Virus record (IMG/VR): IMGVR_UViG_3300043811_000032 | Coordinates: 34,692 to 98,691 of that record | Source of the DNA: a virus | Direction: 5' to 3' (one strand) | Length of the DNA: 64,000 bases | Shown: positions 3,971 to 45,124 of the stretch, in pieces | Position numbering within the stretch: position 1 is the stretch's first letter | Layout of the letters: each line of letters starts with the position of its first letter | Position numbers and translations under genes: made by a program | The notes under the pieces: generated by a model | Seen by the model: only the letters and a program-made list of their open reading frames with translations | Told to the model about the DNA's origin: nothing | The model's database searches: none

Positions 3971-3983
3971 GTTTCATGCTCTC

Positions 3984-5128: not shown

Positions 5129-5129
5129 G

Positions 5130-11074: not shown

Positions 11075-11083
11075 CGTTGCTCC

Positions 11084-11350: not shown

Positions 11351-11368
11351 TCCGTTGCCCTCGTTAGT

Positions 11369-15674: not shown

Positions 15675-16184
15675 CCTGTTTCGCCCGCTGCCCGATGGCG
15701 TGGTCGGCTTCACCACCACCCCTACGCCGTGCCCGTTCTTCTCCGCCTCGATCTTCGCCGCTCGGCCATTGCGGTACTCCTCGATCTGTGCCGCCCGCAG
15801 CTCCGCCGCCTTCGCCTTCGCCGCCTTGCGCAGCTCACGCCGGATCTCTTTCGCCTCCAGCTTGGCTCGTGCCTCGTCCTGCCGAGCCCGCCGCTTCTCC
15901 GCGATGCTGCGCAGGCGCTTGTCCTGCAGGTTCTGCGGCTCCTCCCAGTAGGCTGTCGCCGAGACCTGCGCGACGATCTCCCGCACCCGCAGGGCATCGT
16001 CGTTGAAGTACTCCACCACCTTGTCGCAGTGGGCGATCAGCCGATGCCCCGGTTGGTAGCAGCCGAGCAGGTAAGCCAGCAGCTCCGCCTCGTCCTCGGT
16101 CACCTGCAGCGGGCGCCACTGTGGCTGGAGGACGTAGCCCGTGGTCTGCTTCTTCTGGTGCTTGCGCTTCTTGCGTGGCATCAC
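15480..16184 (-). CDS. Hypothetical coiled-coil protein
   Basis: Coupled to the methylase; charged helical centre. Confidence 0.55.
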   Translation of the reverse strand: MMPRKKRKHQKKQTTGYVLQPQWRPLQVTEDEAELLAYLLGCYQPGHRLIAHCDKVVEYFNDDALRVREIVAQVSATAYWEEPQNLQDKRLRSIAEKRRARQDEARAKLEAKEIRRELRKAAKAKAAELRAAQIEEYRNGRAAKIEAEKNGHGVGVVVKPTTPSGSGRNRSKAEQARVAQEDVVQQPVEGGAGHLEQPSSTAPPAVGTAGADLGGNEVQHLPVEERDGDGEGVG

Positions 16185-18421: not shown

Positions 18422-21400
18422 TAGCCTTCTCCCATTACTTCGCGGTACAACCCCGCCATCCTTCGGGTAAGTCTCCACCGAGTCCTCAGATTGACTCCGT
18501 TCTTCAGCGGCTGATGCGGCTCGCAGGCACCGATCCGCTTGAGGAACTTGAGCAGCCCGCGTTCCTTGTCCTCTCCTTCGTGAGTTAGGTGGATGAGTGC
18601 AGCCACCTCCAGTCCCATGTCCCCCGCCGCTGCCAAATGCCGGATGATCTCGTACGTGCGGCCCCGAGCCGTATCCATCGCCACCCGTCGCACGCGGACC
18701 ATCACCTCGCCGTCAATGGCGGTGCGGTTGAGTACGATGGCGAGGCAGTACGCCAGCTTGCCGATCTGGGACGTGAGCCGAGCACTCATCTCTCGGCTTG
18801 TCTCCTCGTCCTGCTTCTTGCTAGGGCGGGCACGCAGGTACGCCACGAACTTGGCGTAGGCCATGCAGAGCCTTGCCGCCTCGTCGGTCATCGTGATGTG
18901 GGGTAGTAACCTACCCACGTTCTGCCGCAGCCACTCGACGTAGCCGCCGGTGATGCGCTTGGCGGCGATCATTTCCGGCGTGTCGGTGGTCTCGACCTTG
19001 CCATCCACCTCGTATAGGTTCATGCGCACCTGGTTGATCTTCCGCCAGCTGATCTCGTCCTCCAGCGAGTCGTCGATCACGTCCATGATGCGGCAGCACA
19101 GGAACCGCTCGCCCAGCTCACTGGTGTCCAGCGCACGCAGCGCCCCCGTACCGCAGAGTATCCAGGCGAAGCGGATACCCTCGTAGTCGCGGGACATCTT
19201 GTTGTTGAAAGCCGACCTACCCACCGTGTCGTACAGGTCGCGGGCCTGCCCCAGCACCTGATCGCGGTTAGGTAATGTCAACACCGTGTCGCCATCTTTG
19301 ACAACGAACGCCTTGTCGCGGAGCTTGTTCACCAATCCGAGGTCCTCCGTGCCCTCCTTGTCCGTCTGGTAGCCGCTGTAGAAGCCGCGGAACGTGCTCT
19401 GGGCCTTGACGTACTCGCGAGCCACGCTAATCGCCTCGCACAGGATACTCTTGCCGGTAGACGGAGGCGACACCGCCATGATCCAGATCTGGTCCCCCAC
19501 CACCTTCACCGAGGCGACCGCCGCCATGATGATGCTGAAGCCGTAGTCCAGCCCGTCCGTCCACTTCATCGCCTTGCGCCACGCCTGCACGCAGTCCCGC
19601 CAGTTGTCGCAGGGCTGGGTCGTGAGTAGGTCGCGGTGTGGCCCGGCCTCGCTCTTGACCAGCCACTCGGCAGGCACCGGCTCGATCCGGTCGTTGAGCC
19701 TCTCCTGTAGTTCGATGCGCTCCTCCGCCGTCGAGCCCTGCGTGAGCCAGTCCCGCACGTCGTAGCCGCTCGGCAGCTCGGGGTCGTAGCCGTCCGCGCC
19801 CCAGCGAATGTACCTGATCTCCTTGGGTGGTGCCTCCTGGCTCGCCAACAGCCGGGCGACGCGCTCCATGCCGTCTAGTCCGGCCTTGGTGACTCGTCCC
19901 TGATGCTCGCGAGGATGGTCGTTGTCGAACAGTAGTACCACCGTCTTGCCTGCCAGCAGCGAGGCCCAGCTCGGGTTGAACACGCTACAGCCCGGCACCG
20001 CCAGCACGTTCGCCCGCTGGCCGAGTCCCGCACTGCGAGCCGCCTGTAGCGTCTCCCACCACGCCATCCCGTCCCACGGCCCTTCACAATTTCCAGACAC
20101 CACCGCCTTGCCGTTCCGGCGGACCACCACAAACCCAGTGGAGACAGTCACGCAGTAGACCTTACCTTTGTAGTGCTCTCTAGTCGGTTTATTGACAATC
20201 ACTCTCCAAGGTTTCTTGATCATACAGAGGACGTACTGGTCGTTGCAGTTCTCCTCCTCGGACGGTATGCGGTTGGTACCGCTGGAATAGCCGGAGATCA
20301 CAGCCATCCTTGAGATGACGTCTGCGTTGGCAGCGTTGGAGGTAAAATACCGGATACAGTTCTGGCCCTTGTCGCCGTCCCAATGAGGAATCTCCTCAAT
20401 GATAGTCTGGCGGGTCTTGAGCGGCCAAGCTAGCTCCTTGCCTGTCCATATCTTCTTAGGGCAGCATTCCAATAAGAATTGAGCCTCCGGCTGTCGCTTG
20501 TCTATGAGGATAGACTCAGACTCGTCCACGCTCCCCCAGTGGTGAGTCTTGAACTTTATGCCAAGTTCGTTGAGCAGGCTCTTTAGCCGCTCTTTCTTGC
20601 GATCCTTGTAGAAGCTGAACTCGATCTGGAATCCGCCTCGGATACAACCGTCGGCTACGAAAGCCGTCAACAACTTGGCTTGCGTTTCTGATGGACCTGC
20701 TTCTTCCCCCACCATAGTACCGCTGACTGGCAACTGGAAGCCGGCACCAACGTCTTGGGCCTTTCTGACTTGGCTCTTGGTAGCCTGCTGCCTTTTGCAC
20801 AGCATCCTGTGGTCTGGCGTAACCAACAGGTCACACCAGCGGCTGGCGAAGTTGACCATCTCTCCGTGGAAATCTAGGACCTGCTTGGCTCTAGGCCGCT
20901 CGAACCTTATGCTCTCGTTCTCTGGTTTGTAGGAGGCCACTCTGTCCTCCTCTCCCAATTCCTTGAACAACATCCATCCACGGTTAGTAAGGATCTCTGT
21001 GTCGTCCGAGTAGCAGACGTAACACATCTCCTTGCTCGCGTCGAACAGCGGCACGCCATGAAGCCCGTGTCCAACGTGCTCTCCGCCTGATAGAGTCGTA
21101 GGAAGCAACTTCATTCTCTTACTTGTATAGTCTCGCACGTAGCGGTACAGCTGGACGAGGTTGCCCTCGCGGTTGTACCCCGGCAGCGCGTAGTCAAGAG
21201 TGAGCGGATGCCGAATAGCTCCCCACTTGACGAGCGTGTCGACACTGAGCAGCTTGCGATCCTCGGCCAGCTCCTCCAGATCCGTCGGCGGTTGTGCCGC
21301 AGCCCACAGCTCGCGTAGGAACGTAACCTGGTTACCAGCACGTCCGCAGACCTTACAGTCCCAGAGCCCGCTCGCTGTTGCCACTCGCCATTTGAGCTTA

Positions 21401-21510
21401 CCGCAGAACGGACACTCTGCCTCCGACTGGTCCTGCCCCTCCCACGACAGGTCCATCCCGTGTTGGACGTATGCTTTCAATACCGCAGGAACGGTCTTGA
21501 CGACAGGCAT
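18421..21510 (-). CDS. Primase-helicase (Zn finger + TOPRIM + P-loop) containing an intein
   Basis: CPFC..CKVC, CEGPWDG, LLFDND, SPPSTGKS. Confidence 0.85.
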   Translation of the reverse strand: MPVVKTVPAVLKAYVQHGMDLSWEGQDQSEAECPFCGKLKWRVATASGLWDCKVCGRAGNQVTFLRELWAAAQPPTDLEELAEDRKLLSVDTLVKWGAIRHPLTLDYALPGYNREGNLVQLYRYVRDYTSKRMKLLPTTLSGGEHVGHGLHGVPLFDASKEMCYVCYSDDTEILTNRGWMLFKELGEEDRVASYKPENESIRFERPRAKQVLDFHGEMVNFASRWCDLLVTPDHRMLCKRQQATKSQVRKAQDVGAGFQLPVSGTMVGEEAGPSETQAKLLTAFVADGCIRGGFQIEFSFYKDRKKERLKSLLNELGIKFKTHHWGSVDESESILIDKRQPEAQFLLECCPKKIWTGKELAWPLKTRQTIIEEIPHWDGDKGQNCIRYFTSNAANADVISRMAVISGYSSGTNRIPSEEENCNDQYVLCMIKKPWRVIVNKPTREHYKGKVYCVTVSTGFVVVRRNGKAVVSGNCEGPWDGMAWWETLQAARSAGLGQRANVLAVPGCSVFNPSWASLLAGKTVVLLFDNDHPREHQGRVTKAGLDGMERVARLLASQEAPPKEIRYIRWGADGYDPELPSGYDVRDWLTQGSTAEERIELQERLNDRIEPVPAEWLVKSEAGPHRDLLTTQPCDNWRDCVQAWRKAMKWTDGLDYGFSIIMAAVASVKVVGDQIWIMAVSPPSTGKSILCEAISVAREYVKAQSTFRGFYSGYQTDKEGTEDLGLVNKLRDKAFVVKDGDTVLTLPNRDQVLGQARDLYDTVGRSAFNNKMSRDYEGIRFAWILCGTGALRALDTSELGERFLCCRIMDVIDDSLEDEISWRKINQVRMNLYEVDGKVETTDTPEMIAAKRITGGYVEWLRQNVGRLLPHITMTDEAARLCMAYAKFVAYLRARPSKKQDEETSREMSARLTSQIGKLAYCLAIVLNRTAIDGEVMVRVRRVAMDTARGRTYEIIRHLAAAGDMGLEVAALIHLTHEGEDKERGLLKFLKRIGACEPHQPLKNGVNLRTRWRLTRRMAGLYREVMGEG
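20089..21015 (-). mobile_element. Intein with LAGLIDADG-like endonuclease (309 aa) in the primase
   Basis: YV|CYSDDTEILT...VTPDHRM...AFVADG...HWDGD...VYCVTV...VSGN|CEG. Confidence 0.9.
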
Positions 21511-22058
21511 CAATAGCTCCTTACTTCCCACACGATCATCCGACGTTGGAGTACGCCACAGTGCACGCGATAGTGCGAGAACTCGACCACGTGGTCCTCG
21601 TAGGTATCCAGCAGCTCCATCAGCCAGTCGTAGTCGCCGGGGTCGAGCGTTGTCCGCAGTAACGAGGTAGCAATTATACCGTAAACCTCGGCCGAGCGGG
21701 TGGCTAAAGCGGGCCGCATCGGCATCGGCAACGTGCTGTAGAGCAAATAGAGCCCGCGATTGCTCTGCATCACCTCCCCTTGCAGCACCGTCGTCGCCGT
21801 GGGCGCCATCTCGCTGCAGTACCAGTCCTGCGGATCACTCATCCGTAGCCACAGTCCTCGCACCGCGGAGTAGCTCTGGTCATAGTACGTCGCCCCAGCC
21901 GCCACCCGATTGCGCAGGTGGTAGCTGCCCATCTGGTTAGCCCCACTCTCAAACGCAACGCGGTCGTGCCACGTGTTGGTGCGGTTGCCGAACTCCAGCG
22001 CTTGGTATCGCTGGGTGAAGTCCGTTTTACTTAGCACCGGCGGTCTGCTTGGCCACAT
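21510..22058 (-). CDS. Hypothetical protein in the DNA-modification module
   Basis: Between TS and primase; no motif recognised. Confidence 0.65.
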   Translation of the reverse strand: MWPSRPPVLSKTDFTQRYQALEFGNRTNTWHDRVAFESGANQMGSYHLRNRVAAGATYYDQSYSAVRGLWLRMSDPQDWYCSEMAPTATTVLQGEVMQSNRGLYLLYSTLPMPMRPALATRSAEVYGIIATSLLRTTLDPGDYDWLMELLDTYEDHVVEFSHYRVHCGVLQRRMIVWEVRSY

Positions 22059-23130
22059 AGTTCGCCTCCCGTCTACAGAGCCACTCTACCGCCGCCAGAC
22101 GCCAGTCATCTCCCCAACACATCTGCGCCGCCTTGAGTGCGTGGGTGTAGTTCCTGCTCTTGCGGTGATGGAACGCCATCATCAGCGGCTGGGCGACGTT
22201 CCGCAGGAAGCTGCAGTGGTACGAGCCTGCCAGTGCGTCCTTGCTGTGCCGCTCGACAAATTCACTACACTCCTTGTCGAAGATTTCCAGCTCGTTGGGC
22301 GAGAGCAGCGGCCACTTGAGGTCGCGGTCGGTGTAGAAGTCGTCGTGCTTGGTGTCGGCGAGCCAGACCTCCGGTTTCCAATTGCTTTCGTACACGTGGC
22401 CATTCGTCGTGATCTGGTGGTACTGCCCTACGGCGACGCCGAGGTGCGCGGCGACGTATTCAAGCAAGACGCTGAAGTGTACCGCATTCGCTCCCAGCAG
22501 CCCCCAAATCAAATCGTTAGAGCGATTGAACACCGTAAGGTTCAGCTGCCGCGGCTCGCCGTGCGTCCAACCCCCCGACATCTGGAACGTCGCGGCGAGG
22601 TTGCAGCAGACATCGCGGCTACGGTCGATAGCCAATAGGTCCTGATCCACCGTCCACATCTGGAGCACTGCCCGCCGGCTCTCCGGCTTCTCCTTCAAGT
22701 GTCGTATGATCTGGGCTATCTGGTCCCAAGGCTCTAGGGCGTACCTATCGCCGGCGCTGTCGATCTGGTCATCGGTCAAGGCGTAGCTCTTGCTGTGCCG
22801 CCATCGCTTTCCGTAGCCGCCATTGAACGTCTCGCCGTCGTCCGTGTACTCCTTGAACTGCTTAGCGTAGTAGACGAGCGGGCTTACATCGTTCCGCCCC
22901 GCCAACATGTATAACGCTTCGTAGAGCATCATGAATGGATTCGCGTCCCGAGCCCCATTCATCAAGACTCTTTCACATGGCCGCTCGTACGTCACCGTCA
23001 ACGGCTCCTCGATGACCAACACCGACCCGTTGCGGCTAGGGCTGGGTGTAGTTGGAATCGATCCGTCGTGTATGCCCTGCACTATCGTCCTGAAGGCGGT
23101 TCCGACGTTGCGTGTCTTGATCTGTGGCAC
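22027..23130 (-). CDS. Thymidylate synthase homolog, probable dUMP hydroxymethylase
   Basis: RDANPF, SRRAVLQMW, DVCCN, NRSNDLIWGLLGANAVHFS (Asn indicates dUMP specificity), HVY. Confidence 0.85.
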   Translation of the reverse strand: MPQIKTRNVGTAFRTIVQGIHDGSIPTTPSPSRNGSVLVIEEPLTVTYERPCERVLMNGARDANPFMMLYEALYMLAGRNDVSPLVYYAKQFKEYTDDGETFNGGYGKRWRHSKSYALTDDQIDSAGDRYALEPWDQIAQIIRHLKEKPESRRAVLQMWTVDQDLLAIDRSRDVCCNLAATFQMSGGWTHGEPRQLNLTVFNRSNDLIWGLLGANAVHFSVLLEYVAAHLGVAVGQYHQITTNGHVYESNWKPEVWLADTKHDDFYTDRDLKWPLLSPNELEIFDKECSEFVERHSKDALAGSYHCSFLRNVAQPLMMAFHHRKSRNYTHALKAAQMCWGDDWRLAAVEWLCRREANYVAKQTAGAK

Positions 23131-23701
23131 GGTGCTCTCCTTTGTAAAGTTGCTCGAACGCGGCCAAGAACTCTACCTCGCTCTTCTGCCACGTCCACGG
23201 TATCCAATACTTGACGCTGGCGATCTCCTCTGCCGTCAGCGGCGGGTAGTTCCGCTCCTGGTCTGGCTGCATCAGGGCGACGGTGCAGCCCGGTAGTAAC
23301 TTGCTCATCTCGTAGCGGACCAGCACCCGGTCGGCGCGTTCCACTACCTCCGCCGTCTCCTCCGCGCAACCATACTTGCGGTAGATCGTCCTCTGCAGCC
23401 GGTCCTCCGCCGCTCGGTAGCCAGCCATCTCGGGCGTCTTCTTCAGCCACTTCGTCACATCCCCGAGATAGGTCTCACTGGCGTCGTGGAGCAGAGCTTG
23501 GAGCGCGTGGGGCGTGTCCCAGCAGATCCGAGCCGCGTAGACGCTGTGCTGGGCGACGCTGAGCGGCACCTTGGTTGCGCCTGCGAAGCGGTTGCATAGG
23601 GCAAGATGGTGGGCGATGTCCTCGATGACGATGTCCGCCGGCTGGACGTCGAGGGGGTTGATCTTGCGGCCGGTGAACGAGTACATAAAGGGCTGAGTCA
23701 T
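23036..23701 (-). CDS. HD-domain 5'-deoxynucleotidase (YfbR/YfdR-like)
   Basis: IEDIAHHLA..NRFAG, SVAQHS, LLHDASETYLGD. Confidence 0.85.
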   Translation of the reverse strand: MTQPFMYSFTGRKINPLDVQPADIVIEDIAHHLALCNRFAGATKVPLSVAQHSVYAARICWDTPHALQALLHDASETYLGDVTKWLKKTPEMAGYRAAEDRLQRTIYRKYGCAEETAEVVERADRVLVRYEMSKLLPGCTVALMQPDQERNYPPLTAEEIASVKYWIPWTWQKSEVEFLAAFEQLYKGEHRATDQDTQRRNRLQDDSAGHTRRIDSNYTQP

Positions 23702-23759
23702 CCTGAACTCCTTATGGATCAACGGGATCGGAAAACTTGGTTCAATCTAGATATTTCGC

Positions 23760-23788
23760 CTTGCTTCAGGCTACAGTCGGCGTATACT
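23760..23788 (+). promoter_or_regulatory. Putative sigma70-type promoter
   Basis: TTGCTT-N16-TATACT upstream of the 23843 gene. Confidence 0.45.
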
Positions 23789-23842
23789 TTACCAAGGCGA
23801 CAGGGGGCACACCGCCACCCGGCCACCATCTGGAGAACCGCA

Positions 23843-24253
23843 ATGACCGCTACCATGACCGAAGCCCCCGTCAGCACCAATGGCCACACCAGCAGCACCA
23901 AGCCGGTTGCCAAGAAGACTCGCAAGGCCAAGCCTGCCGCCACCAAGACCGAGGCCCAGTACGGCATCGACCGCAGCCACGACCTGCCGTGGCACGACAA
24001 GAAGGTTGCCATCTTCAAGGCACTGAAGGCGCTGGGTGCCACCAAGAGCGGTGACGCCGTGTCGGCCGTGCAGGTTGCTGCCAAGGCCAAGGTGACCGCC
24101 CGCGACGTCCGCCACTACTGCTACCACGCCAAGGCGGCTGGGCTGGTTGACTTGGCCACCATCGAGGACGTTCGCGGCCACGCCTTCTACCTGACCGCCA
24201 AGGGCCGCAACATCGACCCCGTGCAGGCACAGAAGGCTGAACAGGCCGAGTAA
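23843..24253 (+). CDS. Basic winged-helix DNA-binding protein
   Basis: GGAG RBS; Lys/Ala-rich N-terminus; SAVQVAAKAKVTARDVRHY...GLV...FYLTAKG. Confidence 0.65.
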   Translation: MTATMTEAPVSTNGHTSSTKPVAKKTRKAKPAATKTEAQYGIDRSHDLPWHDKKVAIFKALKALGATKSGDAVSAVQVAAKAKVTARDVRHYCYHAKAAGLVDLATIEDVRGHAFYLTAKGRNIDPVQAQKAEQAE

Positions 24254-24280
24254 CGCTGCCACCATTACCAACCCCCTTAC

Positions 24281-24315
24281 AGGCCCGTACAATGGTGTGC
24301 GGGCCTTTATTGTTG
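24281..24315 (+). terminator. Intrinsic terminator overlapping a TTACCA-N17-TACAAT promoter
   Basis: aggcccgtac/gtgcgggcct stem followed by TTATTGTT. Confidence 0.55.
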
Positions 24316-24324
24316 GAGCCACTT

Positions 24325-24558
24325 ATGGAACTCAACCGCGCTCAGCTCTGCCTGCTCCGCAGTATCAAGTCCACCGGCTTCCCTGCCGAGTTACTGCAGA
24401 TCTTCCTCGGTCGCTGCGGTGCCACCGTTGCCGAGTGGCAAGCCCTGCTGGATGCCGACTTGGTTACTGCCGGCAAACGTGCCGAACGTGGTCGCTACGT
24501 GATTACCAAGGCTGGCACCACCGCTTACAACCACCGCCCGAAGCACATCTACTTCTAG
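24325..24558 (+). CDS. Small winged-helix-like protein
   Basis: GGAG RBS; LLDADLV...RYVITKAG. Confidence 0.5.
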   Translation: MELNRAQLCLLRSIKSTGFPAELLQIFLGRCGATVAEWQALLDADLVTAGKRAERGRYVITKAGTTAYNHRPKHIYF

Positions 24559-25520
24559 CCCATCTCCCACGGCTGCAGTACCGGCAAAGTATAACAACCT
24601 TTGCCGAGTGCTGTGGCTATCGCCCGCTCATCCTCTGCTGTTGGCAGCGGCAGGCTCTTCTTACCCTTCTTGTCCGGTAGCAGCCCCGGTCGATAGCTCA
24701 GTGCATCGCAGCCGGCACACGGACCGAAGTCACGCAGCCCGTGGTACAGCTTGCGCCGTGCCGCTCGCATTGCCGGCCCCTGCCAGATCTGCTCTAGTGT
24801 CTGTTGCACCACGTTGCCACACTGGTACTCACCGCGCCAGTCGTTGCAGCATACTGCCACGCTACCATCCCAGCGTATGCTCAGCTCCCTGAACGGTTTG
24901 GCACACCGCTTGCCCATCGCGTTGTCGTTCTTGGGGCTGCCGCAGCCCGCGTGGTTGTTCAGACTGGCGTGGGTGCCCTTGGTCGCCTCGGCGATGTCCT
25001 GCACGATGACCAGGTCGTGCTCGTCTGGCTTGCGGCGCCGGTGCGGGTTGCCCGACTTGTCTGCTGGGTACATCGTCGGCTCGTGCTTGCCGCTGTACCG
25101 CTGCAGGATCTTGGGCACGATTTGCACCCCTTCGTAGGCATCCAAGGCCAGCACGTTCAGGCTCTGCAGGGCAGTGTCGATTGTCTCCGTCGGTGTCCTC
25201 AGGAACCCCGCCCCGTTGCTGGTCATCATCAGGTGAGCACGCTTGGGCAGTCGTCGCCGGAACGTGCCAAGTATCTCCAGCATCTGTGGGTTAGCACTAG
25301 GCTCACCGTGCATAGCAAACTCGATGCGTGGCAGCCAATTGTCCTGCTTGAGCAAGTACACAATCCGCTCCGCTAGCAACACAGTCATGAACTTGTAGTC
25401 GTTGTCCTTACCGCGGATGCCGTTTAACCCACAGAACTGACAGCGTAGCTGACACCCTTCAGTGAGTTCTACTTGTAGGGCGAACGGCGGTTCCTGTCGC
25501 TCAGGATTGTGAAGAGGCAT
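24555..25520 (-). CDS. Radical SAM protein with SPASM/twitch domain
   Basis: CQLRCQFC, HGEP, TSNG, CAKPF...WDGSVAVCCND...PCAGCD. Confidence 0.9.
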   Translation of the reverse strand: MPLHNPERQEPPFALQVELTEGCQLRCQFCGLNGIRGKDNDYKFMTVLLAERIVYLLKQDNWLPRIEFAMHGEPSANPQMLEILGTFRRRLPKRAHLMMTSNGAGFLRTPTETIDTALQSLNVLALDAYEGVQIVPKILQRYSGKHEPTMYPADKSGNPHRRRKPDEHDLVIVQDIAEATKGTHASLNNHAGCGSPKNDNAMGKRCAKPFRELSIRWDGSVAVCCNDWRGEYQCGNVVQQTLEQIWQGPAMRAARRKLYHGLRDFGPCAGCDALSYRPGLLPDKKGKKSLPLPTAEDERAIATALGKGCYTLPVLQPWEMG

Positions 25521-26292
25521 ATGCTTTGCTCCAGTAGACAACCACGTCGGTACGCTCCTCCATCCCCTGCCAGTTCTTCGTCTGCTTCTTGACCACCTTG
25601 ACGAACCCGGGATGTAGCTCGGCCAGCCGCTCGGCTGCTTGGCTCTGCATCGCTGTTGTCCGGTACTGACTGCATCCGCCTGGCAGATTGCTGCCGCCTT
25701 GGTTCCAGCACCATCGGTAGATCATCGCGTTGGGCAAGCCCTTGCGCAGCATCTGCAGGGTCAGATCGAAGTCCTCCATAACCGGCAACCGCCCTGCCTC
25801 CACACCGGCTTGCCGCACCTGCTCCAAGTCATACATGTAGGTATTGAACATGCGACGACACTCGGCCACGTCTTCGGTCTCTCGGTTGTTCCCCTGCCGT
25901 GCCGACAGTCCCACATGAGCGTACTTGTCTAGCAACAATCGCCAGTACTCAAACAGCTCGGTGATCATCTTGCTCTGCGGTTCCAGACTTACCAGCTTGG
26001 GAGACGCCATATCCGGTCGGTACGCGAACGTCATGTCGTCGTCGATCATCGCTAGGTAGCGAGTCTGACACGTCTCCATCAAGTACTTCCTAGTGCCGCT
26101 GATGCCCTTGACGGTGCTTGGGACATACCACAACGGTGCCAGCGCTCCCCATGACCTGTACGACGGCGTCTCGTTGTTGGGAATAGCCAGCTTGGTGACC
26201 CTGAGCAGCTCATTGGGCAACTGCTCCAAGGTTGTCTGCTTGGACGATCTGCCCGAGCTGGGGATCACAATGGTAACGTCTTCAAGCCCCAT
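25501..26292 (-). CDS. TET-associated (TAGT/GREB1/base-J glucosyltransferase-like) DNA glycosyltransferase
   Basis: IVIPSSGR, MIDDD, EDFDLTLQML, GGCSQYRT, LAELHPGFV. Confidence 0.8.
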   Translation of the reverse strand: MGLEDVTIVIPSSGRSSKQTTLEQLPNELLRVTKLAIPNNETPSYRSWGALAPLWYVPSTVKGISGTRKYLMETCQTRYLAMIDDDMTFAYRPDMASPKLVSLEPQSKMITELFEYWRLLLDKYAHVGLSARQGNNRETEDVAECRRMFNTYMYDLEQVRQAGVEAGRLPVMEDFDLTLQMLRKGLPNAMIYRWCWNQGGSNLPGGCSQYRTTAMQSQAAERLAELHPGFVKVVKKQTKNWQGMEERTDVVVYWSKAYASSQS

Positions 26293-27145
26293 TGTACTTC
26301 CTCTTCAGGTGCCCATCCCTACTTAGTGCCCGCTCCATCTTATCGTACTCACATAATGAATGTTCAACCTCGCGGGCCTCGAACGGCGGCATCTTGGGCA
26401 GTTGCTTGGTCAACACGCGCAGCAACCGCTGGCTCTCCTCTTGCCACAGATCACGGGACACCGGTTCATTCAGCCCACGCCCTAGCAATCGGTTCAGCCC
26501 ACGCTTGGCACCTGGCCCTGGATTGGACCACGTCAGCTTGTCTGTGGCGTGCTCCAGCAGTGTCGTGTACCGCAGGTCGCACACCACTTCGTACGCCATG
26601 AAGCCGCTGCCGCCCAGCCCTAGATACTGTTTGAGTCGGCTGTGTGCCTGCTGCATCGTCCGCCACTTGGCAGCATCCGCCAGCAGGCTTGGCAGGTCAT
26701 CCCACACTGGCTGGATGTAGTCGTCACACACACGGTCGATCTTGGGCTTGGTGCTGCCGCTGTTGCTGATGTTGAACGCCCCCGTGAACACACGGTCCAA
26801 CTTGCGCAGGTGTTGCTTGGCGTAGCCGAGCCGCCAATTGGTCAGCAGATCGTGCTCCAGCAGCAGCTCGCCGGTCGGTATCCAGTTAAACCACCGGAAG
26901 CACACGGTAGCGAACAGCACCGCAGGGTCGTCCCGCATCGGCTCACGCACATGCTCTCTGAACCATGCCGTCACCTTGTCGTTCTCGCGGTATGGATTGG
27001 TGAAGAATGTCAAACGCAACACGGCATCATCTGTCCACGGCTTGGGCTTGCCGGCTCGCCGCTTAAGATAGATCTGGTGGCGTTCACGCACCCAGTAGAT
27101 GAACCGGTCGAGCGGGCTCAGCTTGATTACTTCTGACGTTATCAT
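26282..27145 (-). CDS. 5-hmdU DNA kinase family (aGPT-Pplase1) protein, copy 1
   Basis: ERHQIY..R..G...PWTDD..L....FTNPYREND; FRWFN; FMAYEVVCDL; GPGA.RGL; EHSLCEYDK. Confidence 0.8.
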   Translation of the reverse strand: MITSEVIKLSPLDRFIYWVRERHQIYLKRRAGKPKPWTDDAVLRLTFFTNPYRENDKVTAWFREHVREPMRDDPAVLFATVCFRWFNWIPTGELLLEHDLLTNWRLGYAKQHLRKLDRVFTGAFNISNSGSTKPKIDRVCDDYIQPVWDDLPSLLADAAKWRTMQQAHSRLKQYLGLGGSGFMAYEVVCDLRYTTLLEHATDKLTWSNPGPGAKRGLNRLLGRGLNEPVSRDLWQEESQRLLRVLTKQLPKMPPFEAREVEHSLCEYDKMERALSRDGHLKRKYNGA

Positions 27146-28014
27146 CTTTTGCCGCCATACTTCTTAGTAGTGCCTTGCTCCAAGCTGGCTCGTTCGTATT
27201 TGTCGAACTCACAGAGGCTGTGTTCTATGTCTCGCATCTCAAACCGCATCCGTAGCCGTTTGGTAGCTACACTGAGCAGACCCTCTATCTTGTCCAATGC
27301 ATTTGGAACGTCGTCTTGCTTTGCGTACATCCAACCGACCTTTCCAGTGCGATGGTCTACGCCTGCCACTACCGGCATACCAAGCACTCTGCGCAGCCCG
27401 CGAAGACATCCTGGTCCTACGTTGCACCATGTCATGGTGTCGTGTGCCTTATCTAGCAACGACGTGTGTCTGAGGTCACTCACAACTTCATAAGCCATGA
27501 AGTCCCCCAAGTATTTCTGCTGTCGTAGCTCCTTCCAAGCTCCTTGCAGGCTGTTAGATCTCAGAGTGACTGTCTTGAGCCATTCAATAGCTGTACATAC
27601 GCCCTCTATCTTAGACATCCCTGTCGGTGCTGCTATGACGAAGGCGCCAGTAAATACCGGACCATTTACAGTAGACAGCACGTGGATGGCCTTATTCTTG
27701 TCCCACGCATGTAGCAGCCCATTATCAAGTAGTATCTGTCCAGTGTCGATACGGTTGAACCAACGGAAAACTATAGTTCCTAAGAGCACCCGCACATCAC
27801 TCCTCATCGGCTCCCTGAACTGCGTTCTGAACCATGCTGTGGTTTTATCGTTCTCCCTATACGGGTTGGTAAACCAGAACTTTTGCATGACCGTATCGTC
27901 AGTCCAAGGTGGTAGCTTGCCTACCTTGCGCCTGCGGTATATCTGGTCTCTCTCTCTAATCCAGTAGAGAAACCTATCAACAGGGGATAGATTTCGCACG
28001 TCCTCGATCAGCAC
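27142..28014 (-). CDS. 5-hmdU DNA kinase family (aGPT-Pplase1) protein, copy 2
   Basis: Same motif set: PWTDD, FTNPYRENDK, FMAYEVVSDL, EHSLCEFDK. Confidence 0.8.
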   Translation of the reverse strand: MLIEDVRNLSPVDRFLYWIRERDQIYRRRKVGKLPPWTDDTVMQKFWFTNPYRENDKTTAWFRTQFREPMRSDVRVLLGTIVFRWFNRIDTGQILLDNGLLHAWDKNKAIHVLSTVNGPVFTGAFVIAAPTGMSKIEGVCTAIEWLKTVTLRSNSLQGAWKELRQQKYLGDFMAYEVVSDLRHTSLLDKAHDTMTWCNVGPGCLRGLRRVLGMPVVAGVDHRTGKVGWMYAKQDDVPNALDKIEGLLSVATKRLRMRFEMRDIEHSLCEFDKYERASLEQGTTKKYGGKR

Positions 28015-30140
28015 GCCTCCGCCTCCCCCCAGTTGCTCGGATGATAGTTAATCGCCACGCGGAGGGGCACGCCAATATCCACCCCCGACTCCTCCATCAG
28101 CTTTGCCAGCTTGCGCACCTTGGGCAGGTTCCGCTTGCCGCCGGCTGGGAAGTCGAAGTCGATCTCGTCGTGTACTTGCAGCACCATCCGCCCGTCGAAG
28201 CCGTCCTCGCGGCGCCACTTGTCCAGTTGCTCTCGGCAGCGGATCATAGCCTTGAGTGTGCACCACATCGCCCCGCCCTGCGTCCGGTAGTTCAGCGGGA
28301 TCGTCGGACTGATCTTACCCCACTCGGTCCGAGTGCACATCAGCGGATAACCGTGGTGCGGGTCCACCGTCTTGTCGGGCGGTGTCTCAATGTAGCCGTG
28401 CTTGTTGGCGAAGTCTATGCAGTGCTGGTTCCATCGCGTCAGTTCTTTGAGCTTGTCGCTTACCGCCTTGCGGGCACCCTGCTTGTGGGCAGCTCGGTCC
28501 GCCGTCTCGTCGCCGGCCCCGTATTCATAACTGAACCCGAAGTTCTTGCACCACTGGTACCAGGTCGTGCTATACTTCTTCTTGAACGCCCCCTTGGTAT
28601 CGGCTAGCGGCCAGAACAGGTCAGGGTAGATGATACTGGCATTCATCAAGTGGTAGCTGCCATAATACGGCGGCTCGTCTGGCTTCTCGAACAGGTCTAT
28701 CATTAGCCGCTCGCCAGATTCCCAGGCCGGGATTCTGAGTTCTATGTTTTCATAGTCCAGTGCCCACCATTCGCGCCCTTCGGCTGGACCGAACGCATAC
28801 CGCAGGCTCTGCGTCTCCAAGCCAGTTCCACAACACGCTGAGCAGCCTTCGCCCTCGCACTCGCTGCATTCAGCCTCCTGCTTCGACACGTTCTGGCTGT
28901 TAGGGTTGGATGACGACCAGCGGAGCGTATCCGTGCCAGTCGGTGAGAGCGATGGGTGGATATGATACCAGTCCTCCTTGATTGGTATCCAGAACCGGCG
29001 ATACGCCTCCATGTACGCGACCGACGTATCCCGCTTGCGCTTGCGTTGTATCGCCTTGACGAAGTCTAGTTGCTTACCTTCCAAGGTTAGTTCGTACTTA
29101 TCCATCGCCACCTTGTTCAGCGACGGGTTGCCAGTGTCCGTCCACTCCACCACCGGTAGCTTGAGGTATTGCTGCTTGGGACTACCCTCCTGCGGCTTAC
29201 CGAAGCAGAAGTTCAGCAGCGAGTTGTTGTTCCCGCTCTTGGGCAGTTTCAGGTCGTAGTCCAGCCCTTTGGCTATCGCCACGCACTTGGCCCCTGCCTC
29301 GGCACTCTCCGCCTTGTAGCGCGTCGTCAGCTCCTCCAGCCTCATGCGGTTCAGCGTCACCCCCCGCTGCTCCATCTCGTACGCTATCGGCATCGCCTTC
29401 AAGCGACACTGGTAGATGGCCCACAGCCCGCGCCGCCGTAGCTCCGCCTCCATCACCCGCCACAGGGCTACCGTGGTTGCACTATCGGCGTTGGCGTACT
29501 CGGTGGTGACTGTCCACCACTTGTGGTCCTCCGGTAACTTACGGTACTTAGCCATACACCGCGGCAACCACGTATCGTACTTCCACGTCTTAGCGCCAGC
29601 ACTCGGCATCATCTGGTTGCCGGCGTCGTCGAGCAGGTCCTCCTCGGCGATCCGCCACTTGGCCAGCTCCGAGGCCGGCTTGCCCCGCTTGACCTTGAGC
29701 CGTTCCTGTTGGACGATCCGCCGGCACTCCTTCACCGCGTCCTCCATCCGGTCCTCGTAGGGTTGGATGTCGATGCCGAGGTAGTGCAGCGCGAGGCTTG
29801 TCAAGTCGTGCGGTTGGTTCGATGCGAGCACGTGGGCAGCGATCAAGGTATCGTGCGTGTCCTCCCACCGCCAGTAGTCGCCAAACTGGCGGATTGTGCC
29901 CAGTGCCGACACATCGAATTTTCCGTTCTGCATTACCAAGCCGCCCGTCTCGTTAGGGCTCAGTAACTCCGCCAGCTCGTCTACGTCCTCCTCCGGTATC
30001 TGCGGCTTACGGGTCAGTGGATCTACCATCCATTCCCACCAGCGCTGCTCGCCGTCCTCATCACACGTAGTGATGAAGTAAGGCATCGCGCCATGTCTGA
30101 AATCCACGCCCGTCGTTTCCGAGTCAAGAGCACGTATCAT
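28008..30140 (-). CDS. polA: DNA polymerase family A with 3'-5' exonuclease
   Basis: ALDSETTG; LDYENIELR (motif A); K...F...YG (B); QVHDE (C). Confidence 0.93.
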   Translation of the reverse strand: MIRALDSETTGVDFRHGAMPYFITTCDEDGEQRWWEWMVDPLTRKPQIPEEDVDELAELLSPNETGGLVMQNGKFDVSALGTIRQFGDYWRWEDTHDTLIAAHVLASNQPHDLTSLALHYLGIDIQPYEDRMEDAVKECRRIVQQERLKVKRGKPASELAKWRIAEEDLLDDAGNQMMPSAGAKTWKYDTWLPRCMAKYRKLPEDHKWWTVTTEYANADSATTVALWRVMEAELRRRGLWAIYQCRLKAMPIAYEMEQRGVTLNRMRLEELTTRYKAESAEAGAKCVAIAKGLDYDLKLPKSGNNNSLLNFCFGKPQEGSPKQQYLKLPVVEWTDTGNPSLNKVAMDKYELTLEGKQLDFVKAIQRKRKRDTSVAYMEAYRRFWIPIKEDWYHIHPSLSPTGTDTLRWSSSNPNSQNVSKQEAECSECEGEGCSACCGTGLETQSLRYAFGPAEGREWWALDYENIELRIPAWESGERLMIDLFEKPDEPPYYGSYHLMNASIIYPDLFWPLADTKGAFKKKYSTTWYQWCKNFGFSYEYGAGDETADRAAHKQGARKAVSDKLKELTRWNQHCIDFANKHGYIETPPDKTVDPHHGYPLMCTRTEWGKISPTIPLNYRTQGGAMWCTLKAMIRCREQLDKWRREDGFDGRMVLQVHDEIDFDFPAGGKRNLPKVRKLAKLMEESGVDIGVPLRVAINYHPSNWGEAEAC

Positions 30141-30733
30141 GGATGTCTCCTTTGTTTGCCGGAGACAATCCTGTTTATAGAATGGTGCCCTACGCCGTAT
30201 TTCTCGGCCAACTCCTTGGCGTTGCTTTCAAGGTAACTCCATCTACGGTAGTCCCTACGGATCTCAGCTATCTGCTCGTTGGTTAACTTAAATCCCCCGT
30301 TCCCAGATTTTCTCTTTCTATCCCAATACGCTTTGCCTTTGGCGGATATAGTCGCACGGGTTTCAGACGAATGCACCATTCCTAGAGCGTGCTGGTTTCC
30401 TGGAAACCCAGGCTTCCTCCCTTTGGCCACTGCGTCCCGCACGTTATCTGAGATGGTGCCTAAAAATAGATGCTTAGGTCTAACACATGCCGGATTGTCA
30501 CACTTGTGTAGAACTTGCAGACCGTCGGGGATTTCTCCGCACTGAACTTGGTATGCAATCCTAGAATATCTACCTGTGCTTATGCCAGGTCCTCGCGCTG
30601 AATTCATAACCCAACATTTCCCGTGTACAGGATGAACAGGTCCGTCTATTCTATTCACCCTGTTATAGAACCTTACCGCCACCGGCGTAGGCTTACTACC
30701 TATATTGCTGTTTGGATGTCTTCGTCTAGCCAT
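30137..30733 (-). CDS. HNH homing endonuclease with NUMOD3-like and HTH C-terminus
   Basis: VLHKCDNPACVRPKHLFLGT..DN; HSSETRATIS; LAEKYGV. Confidence 0.9.
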   Translation of the reverse strand: MARRRHPNSNIGSKPTPVAVRFYNRVNRIDGPVHPVHGKCWVMNSARGPGISTGRYSRIAYQVQCGEIPDGLQVLHKCDNPACVRPKHLFLGTISDNVRDAVAKGRKPGFPGNQHALGMVHSSETRATISAKGKAYWDRKRKSGNGGFKLTNEQIAEIRRDYRRWSYLESNAKELAEKYGVGHHSINRIVSGKQRRHP

Positions 30734-34606: not shown

Positions 34607-35206
34607 CTAACGCGGAGTCGGCCGCGATTTAGCCACCGGACTCGGAACATTGAGCATCTCCTCTACCGCGTTGGCAACGGTCACTACGGCCCGTTGTATG
34701 AGCAGACCACGTTGAGCTAGGTTGGCACGGATAATCGCCGCAGGGTGCATGATCTCTACCGTCTTGGCGTCGTAGGTCAGGGTCGGCAGCCACTTGGCTG
34801 CGAGTGCTCCCACGGCGACTACCAGCTTGGGCTTGCACAGGTTGATGAACTGCTGAAGTCGGCTGCTGCACGCCTTGATATCAGCCGTCTCGGGCTCACC
34901 GATCTTCATCCCGTCCTCGCTGGTCGGCAAGCACGCCACGAGGTTCGTCAGGGCGTATGTCGGCTTGGGCTCGGGCAACCCTTCCCAGATGCGGTCGATT
35001 ACTGACACTTGAAGTAGCCTACCCGCCGGCCCGACGAATGGCTTGCCTACGGCGTCCTCGCTGGCTCCGGGAGCTTCGCCCGCGAACACTACGTCCGCCG
35101 GCACCGAGCCCCGAGCTAGGACTACGTGTTGCCGCCCCAGCGAGAGCGGGCACTTGGTACAGGCATGCCAGAGGTTCACGTGTTGCATCCACGGGCTAGT
35201 TGGCAT
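34607..35206 (-). CDS. Uracil-DNA glycosylase family 4 (Fe-S)
   Basis: CTKCPL, GEAPGASED..GKPFVGPAG, TNLVAC, HPAA. Confidence 0.9.
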   Translation of the reverse strand: MPTSPWMQHVNLWHACTKCPLSLGRQHVVLARGSVPADVVFAGEAPGASEDAVGKPFVGPAGRLLQVSVIDRIWEGLPEPKPTYALTNLVACLPTSEDGMKIGEPETADIKACSSRLQQFINLCKPKLVVAVGALAAKWLPTLTYDAKTVEIMHPAAIIRANLAQRGLLIQRAVVTVANAVEEMLNVPSPVAKSRPTPR

Positions 35207-45087: not shown

Positions 45088-45124
45088 GGGAGTTCAGTTC
45101 TTCTCTTCTTATAAGGAGTTTGTC

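What the first reader, a model, noticed from the sequence alone, without database searches (positions are those of the whole stretch)
21510..30140. hmU hypermodification module combining a base-J-type glycosyltransferase, two 5-hmdU kinases and a radical SAM enzyme
Seen: polA - HMUDK - HMUDK - TAGT - rSAM/SPASM - (two plus-strand genes) - HD nucleotidase - TS homolog with the dUMP-specifying Asn - unknown ORF - primase. Known: phages such as ViI and M6 incorporate hmdU, phosphorylate it with this kinase family and then use an amino acid:DNA transferase; kinetoplastid JGT glucosylates hmU to base J. Here no amino acid:DNA transferase is recognisable, and a JGT/TAGT-like GT takes its place. Inference: thymine is replaced by a glycosylated and/or phospho-sugar hmU, further altered by the radical SAM enzyme, possibly an undescribed base.
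Basis: partly seen in the sequence, partly recalled or inferred. Interest (0 to 1): 0.85.

Follow-up and report, generated by a model that had tools for sequence, protein, structure and literature searches.

The report
Kinase-less sugar-on-thymine phage DNA cassette
This uncultured phage has an operon that most likely replaces thymine with hydroxymethyluracil, hangs a sugar on it and reworks that sugar with a radical enzyme; the two genes read as "DNA kinases" are not kinases, so the proposed phospho-sugar route has no basis.

Summary

Supported parts:
- **TS homolog:** carries the dUMP-hydroxymethylase signature (D143, C146, D169, N177) and is 39% identical to M6 gp58.
- **TAGT:** passes the Pfam cut-off and has an invariant DDD motif.
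- **Radical SAM enzyme:** a BtrN-like "twitch" enzyme (Foldseek E 9e-15, TM 0.82), not a two-cluster SPASM.

Corrected part: the two "5-hmdU kinases" match only PF18723 (HMUDK_hel).
- They have no Walker A motif and are homologs of M6 gp55, not of the proven kinase gp54.
- They fold like the amino acid:DNA transferase PUGT (Z 11.3).
- They keep an invariant Cys-Glu pair.

No P-loop kinase and no PF18724 transferase was found in the genome.

The core set (dUMP hydroxymethylase, PF18723, glycosyltransferase, BtrN-like rSAM) recurs in about 40 of 64 related IMG/VR loci. A natural TAGT-rSAM fusion protein exists. No GenBank phage carries this rSAM, and I found no paper describing the combination.

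Best reading (0.55): kinase-free glycosyl-hmU whose sugar is tailored by the radical enzyme. The role of PF18723 is unresolved.

Earlier agents of this scan reached the same "kinase-less" reading on at least seven other genomes.

The parts
28008..30140 (-). Family A DNA polymerase with 3'-5' exonuclease; first gene of the coupled operon, expected to incorporate hmdUTP
   Evidence: PF00476 7.5e-26 and PF01612. Its end overlaps the next gene by 7 nt.
27142..28014 (-). PF18723 ('HMUDK_hel') protein a. An M6 gp55-like, HhH-glycosylase-fold paralog of the amino acid:DNA transferases; not a kinase. This is the extra, more diverged copy.
   Evidence: PF18723 4e-45 over residues 12-280 of 290. No Walker A motif; 33% identity to M6 gp55, E 7e-37. 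All family-invariant residues are kept, including the C-E dyad.
26282..27145 (-). PF18723 protein b. Best match, so probably the ortholog, of the single copy found in related cassettes.
   Evidence: 35% identity to M6 gp55, E 6e-45; 64% to the L008 copy. AF2 model pLDDT 93.7. Top fold match is PaMx11 gp46/PUGT at Z 11.3, within the HhH glycosylase superfamily. C265, E266 and K269 are invariant.
25501..26292 (-). TAGT-family GT-A DNA glycosyltransferase; predicted to put a sugar on the 5-hydroxymethyl group of hmU in DNA
   Evidence: PF20691 8.8e-13, above the cut-off; phrog_842 4e-48. D84-D85-D86 is invariant in 34 homologs. Homologs sit beside pyrimidine hydroxymethylases in PhiJL001, LuckyBarnes, MW202897 and T-even-like phages.
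24555..25541 (-). BtrN-like twitch radical SAM enzyme; predicted tailoring enzyme for the DNA-linked sugar
   Evidence: C30/C34/C37 plus invariant C213, C231, C232, C275 and C278. BtrN is the only PDB sequence hit, 7e-5. AF2 pLDDT 92.3. Foldseek to BtrN 4m7t: E 9.3e-15, TM 0.82; the next hit is 9e-9. Fused to a TAGT domain in P0012.
23840..24253 (+). Small plus-strand gene of unknown function that interrupts the operon. The start is approximate; the conserved part is 23951-24223.
   Evidence: Residues 116-206 of ORF 23606-24253 are 59% and 51% identical to antisense-oriented ORFs beside the rSAM in L008 and L010. No Pfam or PHROG hit.
24281..24306 (+). Terminator-like hairpin just after the plus-strand gene
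   Evidence: 11-bp stem with 7 GC pairs and a T-rich tail; a consensus match only.
23036..23722 (-). HD-domain deoxynucleoside 5'-monophosphate phosphatase; predicted to deplete dTMP/dUMP-type competitors
   Evidence: phrog_318 8.7e-47. An HD phosphatase of another subfamily (YfbR-like) sits next to the TS in 28 related loci. M6 gp59 is the analogous gene.
22027..23130 (-). dUMP hydroxymethylase (thymidylate synthase homolog)
   Evidence: 38.6% identity over 99% of its length to M6 gp58. In E. coli ThyA numbering: D143, C146, R166, S167, D169, N177. This matches M6 gp58 and the dUMP hydroxymethylase of SH-Ab 15599. The diagnostic residues are taken from PMC13326640.
21510..22058 (-). Conserved ORF of unknown function downstream of the TS
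   Evidence: 40-51% identical ORFs at the same position in L008-L011 and L042. No family hit and no Walker A motif.
18421..21531 (-). Primase-helicase (context)
   Evidence: Weak phrog_47 primase hit; Walker A motif at residue 523; syntenic in L008, L010, L011 and L042.

Best explanation
This is a kinase-free thymine hypermodification cassette.

**Before replication**
- The TS homolog converts dUMP to 5-hydroxymethyl-dUMP.
- The HD phosphatase drains competing dNMPs.
- The adjacent PolA builds hmU into phage DNA. This step is inferred from family signatures.

**After replication**
- The TAGT GT-A enzyme transfers a sugar from an NDP-sugar to the 5-CH2OH of hmU, giving a base-J-like O-glycoside (inferred).
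- The BtrN-like twitch radical SAM enzyme then acts on that DNA-linked sugar. The most likely reaction is abstraction of a carbinol hydrogen and a two-electron oxidation to a keto-sugar; a related radical rearrangement is also possible (inferred from fold and cluster ligands only).

**The two PF18723 proteins**
- They are not kinases. They are HhH-glycosylase-fold relatives of the amino acid:DNA transferase.
- They have an invariant Cys-Glu dyad, so they most likely flip out a 5-substituted uracil and attack C6.
- Their reaction is unknown. They travel with the dUMP hydroxymethylase in phages with and without a kinase, so they appear to belong to the common hmU core and not to the sugar branch.
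For: **dUMP hydroxymethylase**
- It carries the hydroxymethylase, uracil-specific signature, as do all 45 TS homologs of the cassette.
- Its best hits are M6/YuA-type enzymes of phages proven to use hmU (PMC8989533).

**TAGT**
- Over the Pfam cut-off, with an invariant DDD motif.
- The T6 family member adds glucose to DNA-linked glucosyl-5hmC (PMC13390438).

**Coupling of the rSAM and the GT**
- Of 64 IMG/VR loci with a homolog of the rSAM, 44 have a TAGT by tblastn and others have a ~340-aa GT-B-like protein. These are mostly directly adjacent.
- P0012 (588 aa) is a fusion: a TAGT domain (hhalign probability 97%, E 1e-10) followed by this rSAM (50% identity).

**BtrN likeness of the rSAM**
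-.

**No kinase found**
- No Walker A motif outside helicases and ATPases in any ORF of 60 aa or more.
- PF18748 absent from the genome.
- M6 gp54 and ViI gp67 find nothing in the genome, although ViI gp67 finds M6 gp54 at 6e-13 as a control.
- PF18748 is absent from five related genomes that CheckV rates complete.

**PF18723 is related to the AADT**
- Fold match: Z 11.3, rmsd 4.1 over 219 residues to PUGT. The top 29 rows are all HhH glycosylases, then Z drops to 2.8.
- The E261-H-x-L-C265-E266 motif parallels PUGT E243-T244-x-x-C247.
- Residues invariant across all 35 sequences, among them the kinase-associated (M6 gp55, SH-Ab 15599 Orf49) and most kinase-less members; LuckyBarnes gp38 alone differs, at two otherwise conserved positions (R84K, D202N).
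Against: - There is no chemical evidence. The phage is uncultured, and no GenBank phage carries this rSAM.
- The sugar donor and the acceptor are not shown.
- The one characterised TAGT cited here (T6) is a secondary GT acting on a sugar, not on the base.
- BtrN-like folds also carry out other chemistry.
- The role of PF18723 is unexplained, yet it is present twice.
- PF18748 failed to detect the experimentally proven kinase of SH-Ab 15599, so profile searches alone cannot exclude a divergent kinase.
- Two GT-less relatives (L054, L058) have a weakly ViI gp67-like region beside the rSAM (E 7e-4 and 0.02).
Confidence: 0.55

Rival explanations
1. The PF18723 proteins are the main group-transfer enzymes. 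Cys265 attacks C6 of hmU (or of glycosyl-hmU). With Glu266 as general acid, the 5-substituent leaves without prior phosphorylation, and a nucleophile such as an amine, an amino acid or a sugar hydroxyl is added. The TAGT and the rSAM then decorate that adduct or supply the leaving group. As a variant, the rSAM oxidises hmU to 5-formyl-U, which would be an alternative way to activate it.
For: - AADT-like fold and a conserved E..C-E motif.
- SP10 matches PF18723 only in its kinase-fusion gene gp186 and has no clade-2 transferase listed (PMC5889632 Table 3). That fits PF18723 being a transferase there.
- Two paralogs are kept intact here.
- BtrN and anSME relatives are alcohol dehydrogenases.
Against: - M6 gp55 was dispensable for glycinyl-T formation in lysates (PMC8989533).
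- No kinase-independent displacement has been shown for this superfamily.
- hhalign between PF18723 and M6 gp51 gives only 0.7% probability.
- The rSAM tracks the GT, not PF18723. It is fused to a TAGT domain, and it occurs with two TAGTs in a complete genome without any TS.
Confidence: 0.2
2. One reading: hmU in DNA is phosphorylated by two 5-hmdU kinases, and a JGT/TAGT-like enzyme replaces the AADT, giving a phospho-sugar or sugar-substituted base that the rSAM then alters.
For: The Pfam name of PF18723 is '5-hmdU DNA kinase, helical domain'. In SP10 this domain is fused to a real kinase.
Against: - The proteins consist of the helical domain alone and lack a Walker A motif.
- The validated kinase M6 gp54 belongs to PF18748.
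- PF18748, gp54-like and gp67-like sequences are absent from the genome and from five complete relatives.
Confidence: 0.04
3. The TAGT and the rSAM do not act on DNA. They belong to the phage's large glycan machinery, which would glycosylate virion proteins or host envelope. The DNA would then carry only hmU, or hmU processed by PF18723.
For: The genome holds a roughly 20-kb sugar pathway and many other glycosyltransferases near the structural genes (earlier notes).
Against: - The pair sits inside the replication operon, between PolA and the dUMP hydroxymethylase, and overlaps its neighbours.
- That placement recurs in dozens of unrelated phage backbones.
- TAGT is a DNA-glycosylating family.
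Confidence: 0.08

Closest known systems
Thymidine hypermodification clusters of Pseudomonas phages M6/YuA and PaMx11 (also ViI, PhiW-14, SP10, SH-Ab 15599): dUMP hydroxymethylase, P-loop 5-HMUDK, amino acid/diamine:DNA transferase (PF18724), then PLP, rSAM or FAD tailoring
   Same: - dUMP hydroxymethylase of the same subfamily (39% identity to M6 gp58).
- An HD phosphatase next to it.
- A PF18723 (gp55-like) gene.
- Placement in the replication module.
- Modification of the DNA polymer after replication.
   Different: - No P-loop kinase and no PF18724 transferase were found.
- The rSAM is BtrN-like and unrelated to the M6 gp53 isomerase (no hit).
- A TAGT glycosyltransferase is present instead.
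- PF18723 is duplicated.
Phage DNA glycosylation by TAGT-family GT-A enzymes (T2/T6 second glucosylation of glucosyl-5hmC; TET-associated 5hmC glycosylation)
   Same: Same Pfam family (PF20691), with a DxD motif, sitting next to a pyrimidine hydroxymethylase.
   Different: - The predicted acceptor base is hmU (N177 enzyme), not hmC.
- The GT is coupled to, and in some relatives fused with, a radical SAM enzyme. I found no report of that coupling.
Base J of kinetoplastids (JBP1/2 thymidine hydroxylase plus JGT glucosyltransferase)
   Same: The predicted product class is a sugar O-linked to 5-hydroxymethyluracil in DNA.
   Different: - hmU is made before replication by a TS homolog, not by a Tet/JBP dioxygenase (PF12851 absent).
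- Kinship of JGT with TAGT is from my recollection of Iyer et al. 2013 and was not tested here.
- Base J has no rSAM step.
BtrN (2-deoxy-scyllo-inosamine dehydrogenase, butirosin pathway), a twitch radical SAM dehydrogenase
   Same: Best sequence and fold match. The CxxxCxxC motif and all four auxiliary-cluster cysteines are aligned and invariant. BtrN's substrate is a sugar-like polyol.
   Different: Only about 18% identity. The window protein has roughly 60 extra residues. Its predicted substrate is a sugar attached to DNA, not a free aminocyclitol.
Cultured phages PhiJL001, LuckyBarnes and phiRSL1, each carrying TS + PF18723 + TAGT
   Same: Same three-gene core. In PhiJL001 and LuckyBarnes no PF18748 kinase was found; phiRSL1 was not tested for a kinase.
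   Different: They lack the BtrN-like rSAM. I found no report of their DNA chemistry.

Membership tests
5-hmdU DNA kinase (5-HMUDK; PF18748, M6 gp54 / ViI gp67 type) | P-loop (Walker A) kinase domain | tested here: not met
   Neither PF18723 protein has a Walker A motif. In the whole genome the motif occurs only in helicases, ATPases and short spurious ORFs.
5-hmdU DNA kinase (5-HMUDK; PF18748, M6 gp54 / ViI gp67 type) | Sequence homology to a validated kinase | tested here: not met
   PF18748 has no match in the genome at E<=1. tblastn with M6 gp54 and ViI gp67 gives best E values of 2.0 and 0.26. Controls: M6 gp54 hits PF18748 at 8e-18, and ViI gp67 finds M6 gp54 at 6e-13. Caveat: PF18748 misses the kinase of SH-Ab 15599.
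Amino acid:DNA transferase (ADDT / aGPT-Pplase2, PF18724) | Match to the family profile or to M6 gp51 | tested here: not met
   PF18724 has no match in the genome. M6 gp51 tblastn gives a best E of 0.78. hhalign of the PF18723 alignment against gp51 gives 0.7% probability.
Amino acid:DNA transferase (ADDT / aGPT-Pplase2, PF18724) | HhH-containing fold with a metal-binding Glu and a C6-attacking Cys (PUGT E243, T244, C247) | tested here: inconclusive
   The fold match to PUGT is Z 11.3, tied with other HhH glycosylases. E261-H-x-L-C265 is at the equivalent C-terminal position, and C265 and E266 are invariant. No residue-level superposition was available.
PF18723 (HMUDK_hel; M6 gp55-like) | Full-length match above the Pfam cut-off, with the family-invariant residues | tested here: met
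   154 bits each against a cut-off of 25. All 17 invariant positions are kept in both copies.
dUMP hydroxymethylase (TS superfamily) | Catalytic Cys146; Asn177 (uracil); acidic residue at 143 (water access); Asp169 (not a 5-hydroxy-dCMP synthase) | tested here: met
   Alignment with E. coli ThyA gives C146, N177, D143 and D169. This is identical to M6 gp58 and the SH-Ab 15599 enzyme. The criteria are from PMC13326640.
TAGT (PF20691) GT-A DNA glycosyltransferases | Profile match above the cut-off, with a DxD motif | tested here: met
   49.1 bits against 27.5. D84-D85-D86 is invariant in 34 sequences.
TAGT (PF20691) GT-A DNA glycosylTransferases | Glycosyl transfer to a hydroxymethylpyrimidine, or to a sugar on it, in DNA | not testable with these tools
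   Only context is available: it lies between PolA and the dUMP hydroxymethylase, and homologs sit beside hydroxymethylases.
Twitch radical SAM dehydrogenases (BtrN type) | CxxxCxxC motif plus one auxiliary 4Fe-4S cluster with four Cys ligands, and a BtrN-like fold | tested here: met
   C30/C34/C37 are present. C213, C231, C275 and C278 align with the four aligned cysteines of BtrN's C-terminal domain, which I take from memory to be its auxiliary-cluster ligands, and are invariant. Foldseek E 9.3e-15, TM 0.82.
SPASM radical SAM enzymes (two auxiliary clusters) | Seven- or eight-cysteine motif, including CxxCx5Cx3C | tested here: not met
   Pfam SPASM does hit (52.7 bits). However, there are only five invariant C-terminal Cys, and only a CxxC is present.
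Base J pathway | Tet/JBP dioxygenase that makes hmU in DNA | tested here: not met
   PF12851 has no match in the genome.

The most novel reading that the evidence does not exclude
Thymine in this phage's DNA is replaced by an undescribed base: a glycosyl-hydroxymethyluracil whose sugar is oxidised or rearranged on the polymer by a BtrN-like radical SAM enzyme. That would be the first radical SAM enzyme known to act on a DNA-linked glycan. In the same reading, the PF18723 enzymes carry out kinase-independent covalent (Cys-C6) chemistry at the 5-methylene group. The pathway would be shared by at least dozens of uncultured phage lineages.
Probability: 0.4. Interest if true: 0.85.

Novelty: new variant of a known kind. 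Interest (0 to 1): 0.7.

Why it matters
- Every thymidine hypermodification pathway described in the papers read here starts with a P-loop kinase and an amino acid or diamine transferase. This cassette points to a second, kinase-free, sugar-based branch. It is widespread in uncultured phages: 163 cluster representatives of the rSAM at E<=1e-30.
- It predicts a new DNA base and a new substrate class for twitch radical SAM enzymes.
- It gives the uncharacterised PF18723 family, which is present in the characterised hmU-hypermodifying phages examined here (M6, PaMx11, SP10, SH-Ab 15599), a context in which its function can be separated from the kinase route.
- Such bases determine resistance to restriction and other nucleic-acid-targeting defences. 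They are also useful as enzymatic DNA-labelling chemistries.
- The finding also shows that the Pfam name 'HMUDK_hel' misleads annotation.

Tried and rejected
- **Nucleotide search:** megablast of the region against GenBank phages found no match.
- **Guessed Pfam accessions:** PF18745 and PF18744 turned out to be SNAD families and are irrelevant.
- **Literature:** searches for 5-HMUDK or 5-hmdU DNA kinase together with glycosyltransferase returned zero papers. Iyer et al. 2013 could not be fetched under the PMC id I tried (recalled from memory) and did not appear in a title search of the library, so what I say about it is from memory.
- **PDB sequence searches:** nothing meaningful for the TAGT or for PF18723, as single sequences or as profiles.
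- **Foldseek on the PF18723 model:** no hit at E<=0.001. The fold assignment rests on VIA-align, whose Z of about 11 is not far above the background quoted for helical proteins.
- **M6 homologs:** the rSAM gp53 and the PLP enzyme gp52 have no homolog here, so an M6-type isomerase/decarboxylase route is rejected.
- **The ~340-aa partner protein (alignment A7):** no profile similarity to TAGT. Its GT-B nature rests on motif inspection only. Its similarity to the N-terminus of P0044 is weak (22% probability).
- **P0016:** its extra region is not PF18723.
- **Not attempted:** sequencing-run and read-laying tools were not used, because short reads cannot show base modification. No complex prediction was run, because I make no binding claim.

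Full report
**Setting**

The window is the last 64 kb of a 98,691-bp IMG/VR virus record. The record has 127-bp direct terminal repeats and is rated 100% complete. GC content is about 60%. The finding lies in the replication module. From PolA to the rSAM the genes overlap by 4-41 nt.

**Checking the observation**

Pfam and PHROG scans confirm the following:
- PolA, 28008-30140.
- Two PF18723 proteins, 27142-28014 and 26282-27145.
- A TAGT, 25501-26292.
- A Radical_SAM/SPASM protein, 24555-25541.
- An HD dNMP phosphatase, 23036-23722.
- A TS homolog, 22027-23130.
- An unknown ORF, 21510-22058.
- A primase-helicase, 18421-21531.

Of the two plus-strand ORFs in the gap, only the one ending at 24253 is conserved in close relatives. 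Residues 116-206 are 51-59% identical in L008 and L010, and a terminator-like hairpin follows.

**The TS homolog**

I aligned it with E. coli ThyA and applied the diagnostic positions given in PMC13326640. It has C146, D143, D169 and N177.
- N177 indicates a uracil substrate.
- D143 is the hydroxymethylase-type residue.
- D169 excludes the 5-hydroxy-dCMP synthase type.

This signature is identical to that of M6 gp58 and of the dUMP hydroxymethylase of SH-Ab 15599. All 45 TS homologs of related cassettes share N177 and D169. Its best GenBank-phage hits are M6/YuA-type enzymes, at 38.6% identity over 99% of the length.

**The 'kinases'**

This is where the reading changes. Both proteins match PF18723 ('HMUDK_hel') along their whole length and nothing else. 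They have no Walker A motif.

Their homolog in M6 is gp55 (35% and 33% identity, E 6e-45 and 7e-37). It is not gp54, the enzyme shown experimentally to be the 5-hmdU DNA kinase (PMC8989533). A Pfam scan of the M6 proteins makes the assignments explicit:
- gp54 is PF18748 (HMUDK_HMUD1).
- gp51 is PF18724 (ADDT).
- gp55 is PF18723.

In lysate reconstitutions gp55 was dispensable.

The complete genome has no match to PF18748, PF18724 or PF18746. M6 gp54 and ViI gp67 find no tblastn hit, although ViI gp67 finds M6 gp54 at 6e-13 as a control. No ORF of 60 aa or more has a Walker A motif apart from helicases and ATPases. Five related genomes rated complete also lack PF18748.

There is one caveat. 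PF18748 did not detect the proven kinase of SH-Ab 15599, so the motif and tblastn evidence matters more than the profile search.

**What PF18723 is**

An AlphaFold model of the 26282-27145 protein was built from 31 homologs and has pLDDT 93.7. It aligns best with PaMx11 gp46/PUGT, the 5-PmdU glycinyltransferase: Z 11.3, rmsd 4.1 Å over 219 residues. That is essentially tied with QNG1 and MjOgg. The top 29 rows are all HhH-glycosylase-superfamily proteins, after which Z falls to 2.8.

The family has invariant C265, E266, K269, a GPG..RG motif and several Arg and Asp residues. These are invariant across all 35 sequences compared, which include kinase-associated members (M6 gp55, SH-Ab 15599 Orf49) and kinase-less ones (this window, PhiJL001 gp19). 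LuckyBarnes gp38 alone differs, at two otherwise conserved positions (R84K, D202N).

The motif E261-H-x-L-C265 sits where PUGT has E243-T244-x-x-C247, the metal ligands and the C6 nucleophile (PMC11472151). hhalign aligns exactly that stretch, but without statistical support.

I conclude that these are catalytic, AADT-like base-flipping enzymes of unknown reaction. The copy at 26282-27145 is the best match to the single copy found in relatives, so it is probably the ortholog.

**The radical SAM enzyme**

- It has the CxxxCxxC motif (C30/C34/C37) and five invariant C-terminal cysteines. Four of them align with four cysteines of BtrN's C-terminal domain, which I take from memory to be the ligands of its single auxiliary cluster.
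- The model (pLDDT 92.3) matches BtrN at E 9.3e-15 and TM 0.82. That is six orders of magnitude better than the next hit. Other sugar-modifying rSAMs (SpeY, DesII, AbmM, BlsE) appear further down the list.
- It is unrelated to the M6 isomerase gp53.
- No GenBank phage has a homolog.
- In the 1.84-billion-protein library there are 163 cluster representatives at E<=1e-30 and 715 at E<=1e-10.

**Recurrence and coupling**

64 IMG/VR loci encode a relative of the rSAM at 33-72% identity. By clustering, these genes lie within 7 kb of it:
- a TAGT in 42 loci (44 by tblastn);
- the dUMP hydroxymethylase in 40;
- PF18723 in 38;
- an HD phosphatase in 28.

They are usually directly adjacent, yet the backbones differ, with UvrD-DUF932, SNF2 or PolB neighbourhoods.

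A further ~340-aa protein with GT-B-like motifs partners the rSAM in 15 loci. None of these loci has a clear gp54 or gp51 homolog. The only exceptions are weak ViI gp67-like regions next to the rSAM in two GT-less loci.

Protein P0012 (588 aa) is a natural fusion of a TAGT domain (hhalign 97%, E 1e-10, 230 columns) with this rSAM. This Rosetta-stone link ties the rSAM to the glycosyltransferase and not to PF18723. In line with that, one complete 95-kb genome has two TAGTs and two rSAMs but no TS.

The cultured phages PhiJL001, LuckyBarnes and phiRSL1 carry TS + PF18723 + TAGT without the rSAM. PhiJL001 and LuckyBarnes also lack PF18748; phiRSL1 was not tested for it.

**Mechanism**

The steps are as follows:
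1. Pre-replicative synthesis of hmdUMP. This is supported by the active-site signature.
2. Depletion of competing dNMPs by the HD enzyme. This is inferred by analogy.
3. Incorporation by PolA. This is inferred.
4. O-glycosylation of hmU in DNA by the TAGT. This is inferred from family and context.
5. Radical tailoring of that sugar, most simply a BtrN-type oxidation of a carbinol. This is inferred from the fold, the cluster ligands and the fusion.

PF18723 travels with the dUMP hydroxymethylase whether or not a kinase is present, so it belongs to the shared hmU core. Its Cys-Glu dyad suggests C6 addition chemistry on a 5-substituted uracil, but the reaction is open.

The rival in which PF18723 is the principal, kinase-independent transferase cannot be excluded (0.2).

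**Literature**

The held library has no paper that combines 5-HMUDK or thymidine-hypermodification terms with a glycosyltransferase.

A 2023 preprint mined GT-A and GT-B contigs next to ThyS or 5mYOX. It lists 'viperins' among the neighbouring genes but describes no rSAM tailoring step. Those 'viperin' annotations may include this rSAM family; that is my inference and it is untested.

T6 TAGT adds the second glucose to glucosyl-5hmC.

**Earlier notes of this scan**

Another first-stage note on the same stretch called the pair 'amino acid:DNA transferases'. My tests show that they are fold relatives but not members of PF18724.

Follow-up agents reported the same kinase-less sugar cluster on at least seven other genomes. 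My results agree with theirs and were obtained independently here.

**Verdict**

The cassette is real, conserved and coherent. It is a new variant of hmU-based hypermodification, and its chemistry is undetermined. The kinase part of the finding is an annotation artefact.

Noticed in passing
window 2002-12052 (minus strand), continuing upstream of the window: A sugar-nucleotide pathway lies beside the terminase. It comprises a SAM methyltransferase, two SDR epimerase/dehydratases, a B12-binding radical SAM enzyme, a DegT-type aminotransferase and split TPP E1-like alpha/beta subunits. The part of the genome upstream of the window adds three Glyco_trans_1_2 proteins, another rSAM and a methyltransferase. 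Other first readers take this as virion glycosylation. It could also supply an unusual donor sugar for the DNA glycosyltransferase.
   Followed up: partly
window 16181-18478 (-): An N6/N4 DNA methyltransferase (PF01555, three stretches) has an intein-like insert (PF14890, 26.8 bits, below the cut-off), directly downstream of the primase. This is a second DNA-modifying activity in the same module.
   Followed up: no
window 34607-35206 (-): A UDG-superfamily protein (PF03167, 1e-19) is encoded in the replication region of a phage predicted to carry hmU instead of T. Its specificity would be worth knowing.
   Followed up: no
window 45086-45871 (+): A DUF1559 / N-terminal-methylation pilin-like gene lies among the tail genes. 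This family is typical of Planctomycetota, which hints at the host.
   Followed up: no
window 30137-30733 (-) and 36386-36727 (-): Two HNH_3 homing-endonuclease-like genes, one of them immediately upstream of PolA. Relatives have similar insertions at varying places (cluster c22).
   Followed up: no
L045-L048, L051, L053 and L062 (L045: 6939-11565): One lineage carries a second rSAM, a TAGT, an unknown 260-aa protein, the BtrN-like rSAM and, in most of these loci (cluster c36; not seen in L051 or L053), an APS kinase (PF01583, 2e-57). This set sits next to a PolB, clamp loader and gp32, and no TS or PF18723 lies nearby. It suggests a sulfated sugar on a different base.
   Followed up: partly
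L054:11020-11529 and L058:11431-11811: In two GT-less relatives, the region just after the rSAM (fused to it in L054, where the ORF is 608 aa) is weakly similar to the ViI gp67 kinase (E 7e-4 and 0.02). If real, the kinase and the glycosyltransferase may be alternative partners of this rSAM.
   Followed up: no
L049 record (95.4 kb, rated complete): This genome has two TAGTs and two BtrN-like rSAMs in tandem, but no thymidylate-synthase homolog anywhere. The acceptor base must be made another way.
   Followed up: partly
SH-Ab 15599 record (L073 / W02): The Pfam kinase profile PF18748 does not detect the experimentally used 5-HMUDK of this phage. Pfam therefore covers the kinase family incompletely. 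The PF18723 gene of this phage (Orf49) sits beside its dUMP hydroxymethylase and is not discussed in PMC13458397.
   Followed up: partly
window 21510-22058 (-): A 182-aa ORF with no family match is conserved (40-51% identity) directly downstream of the dUMP hydroxymethylase in the five closest relatives. It may be an unrecognised member of the module.
   Followed up: partly
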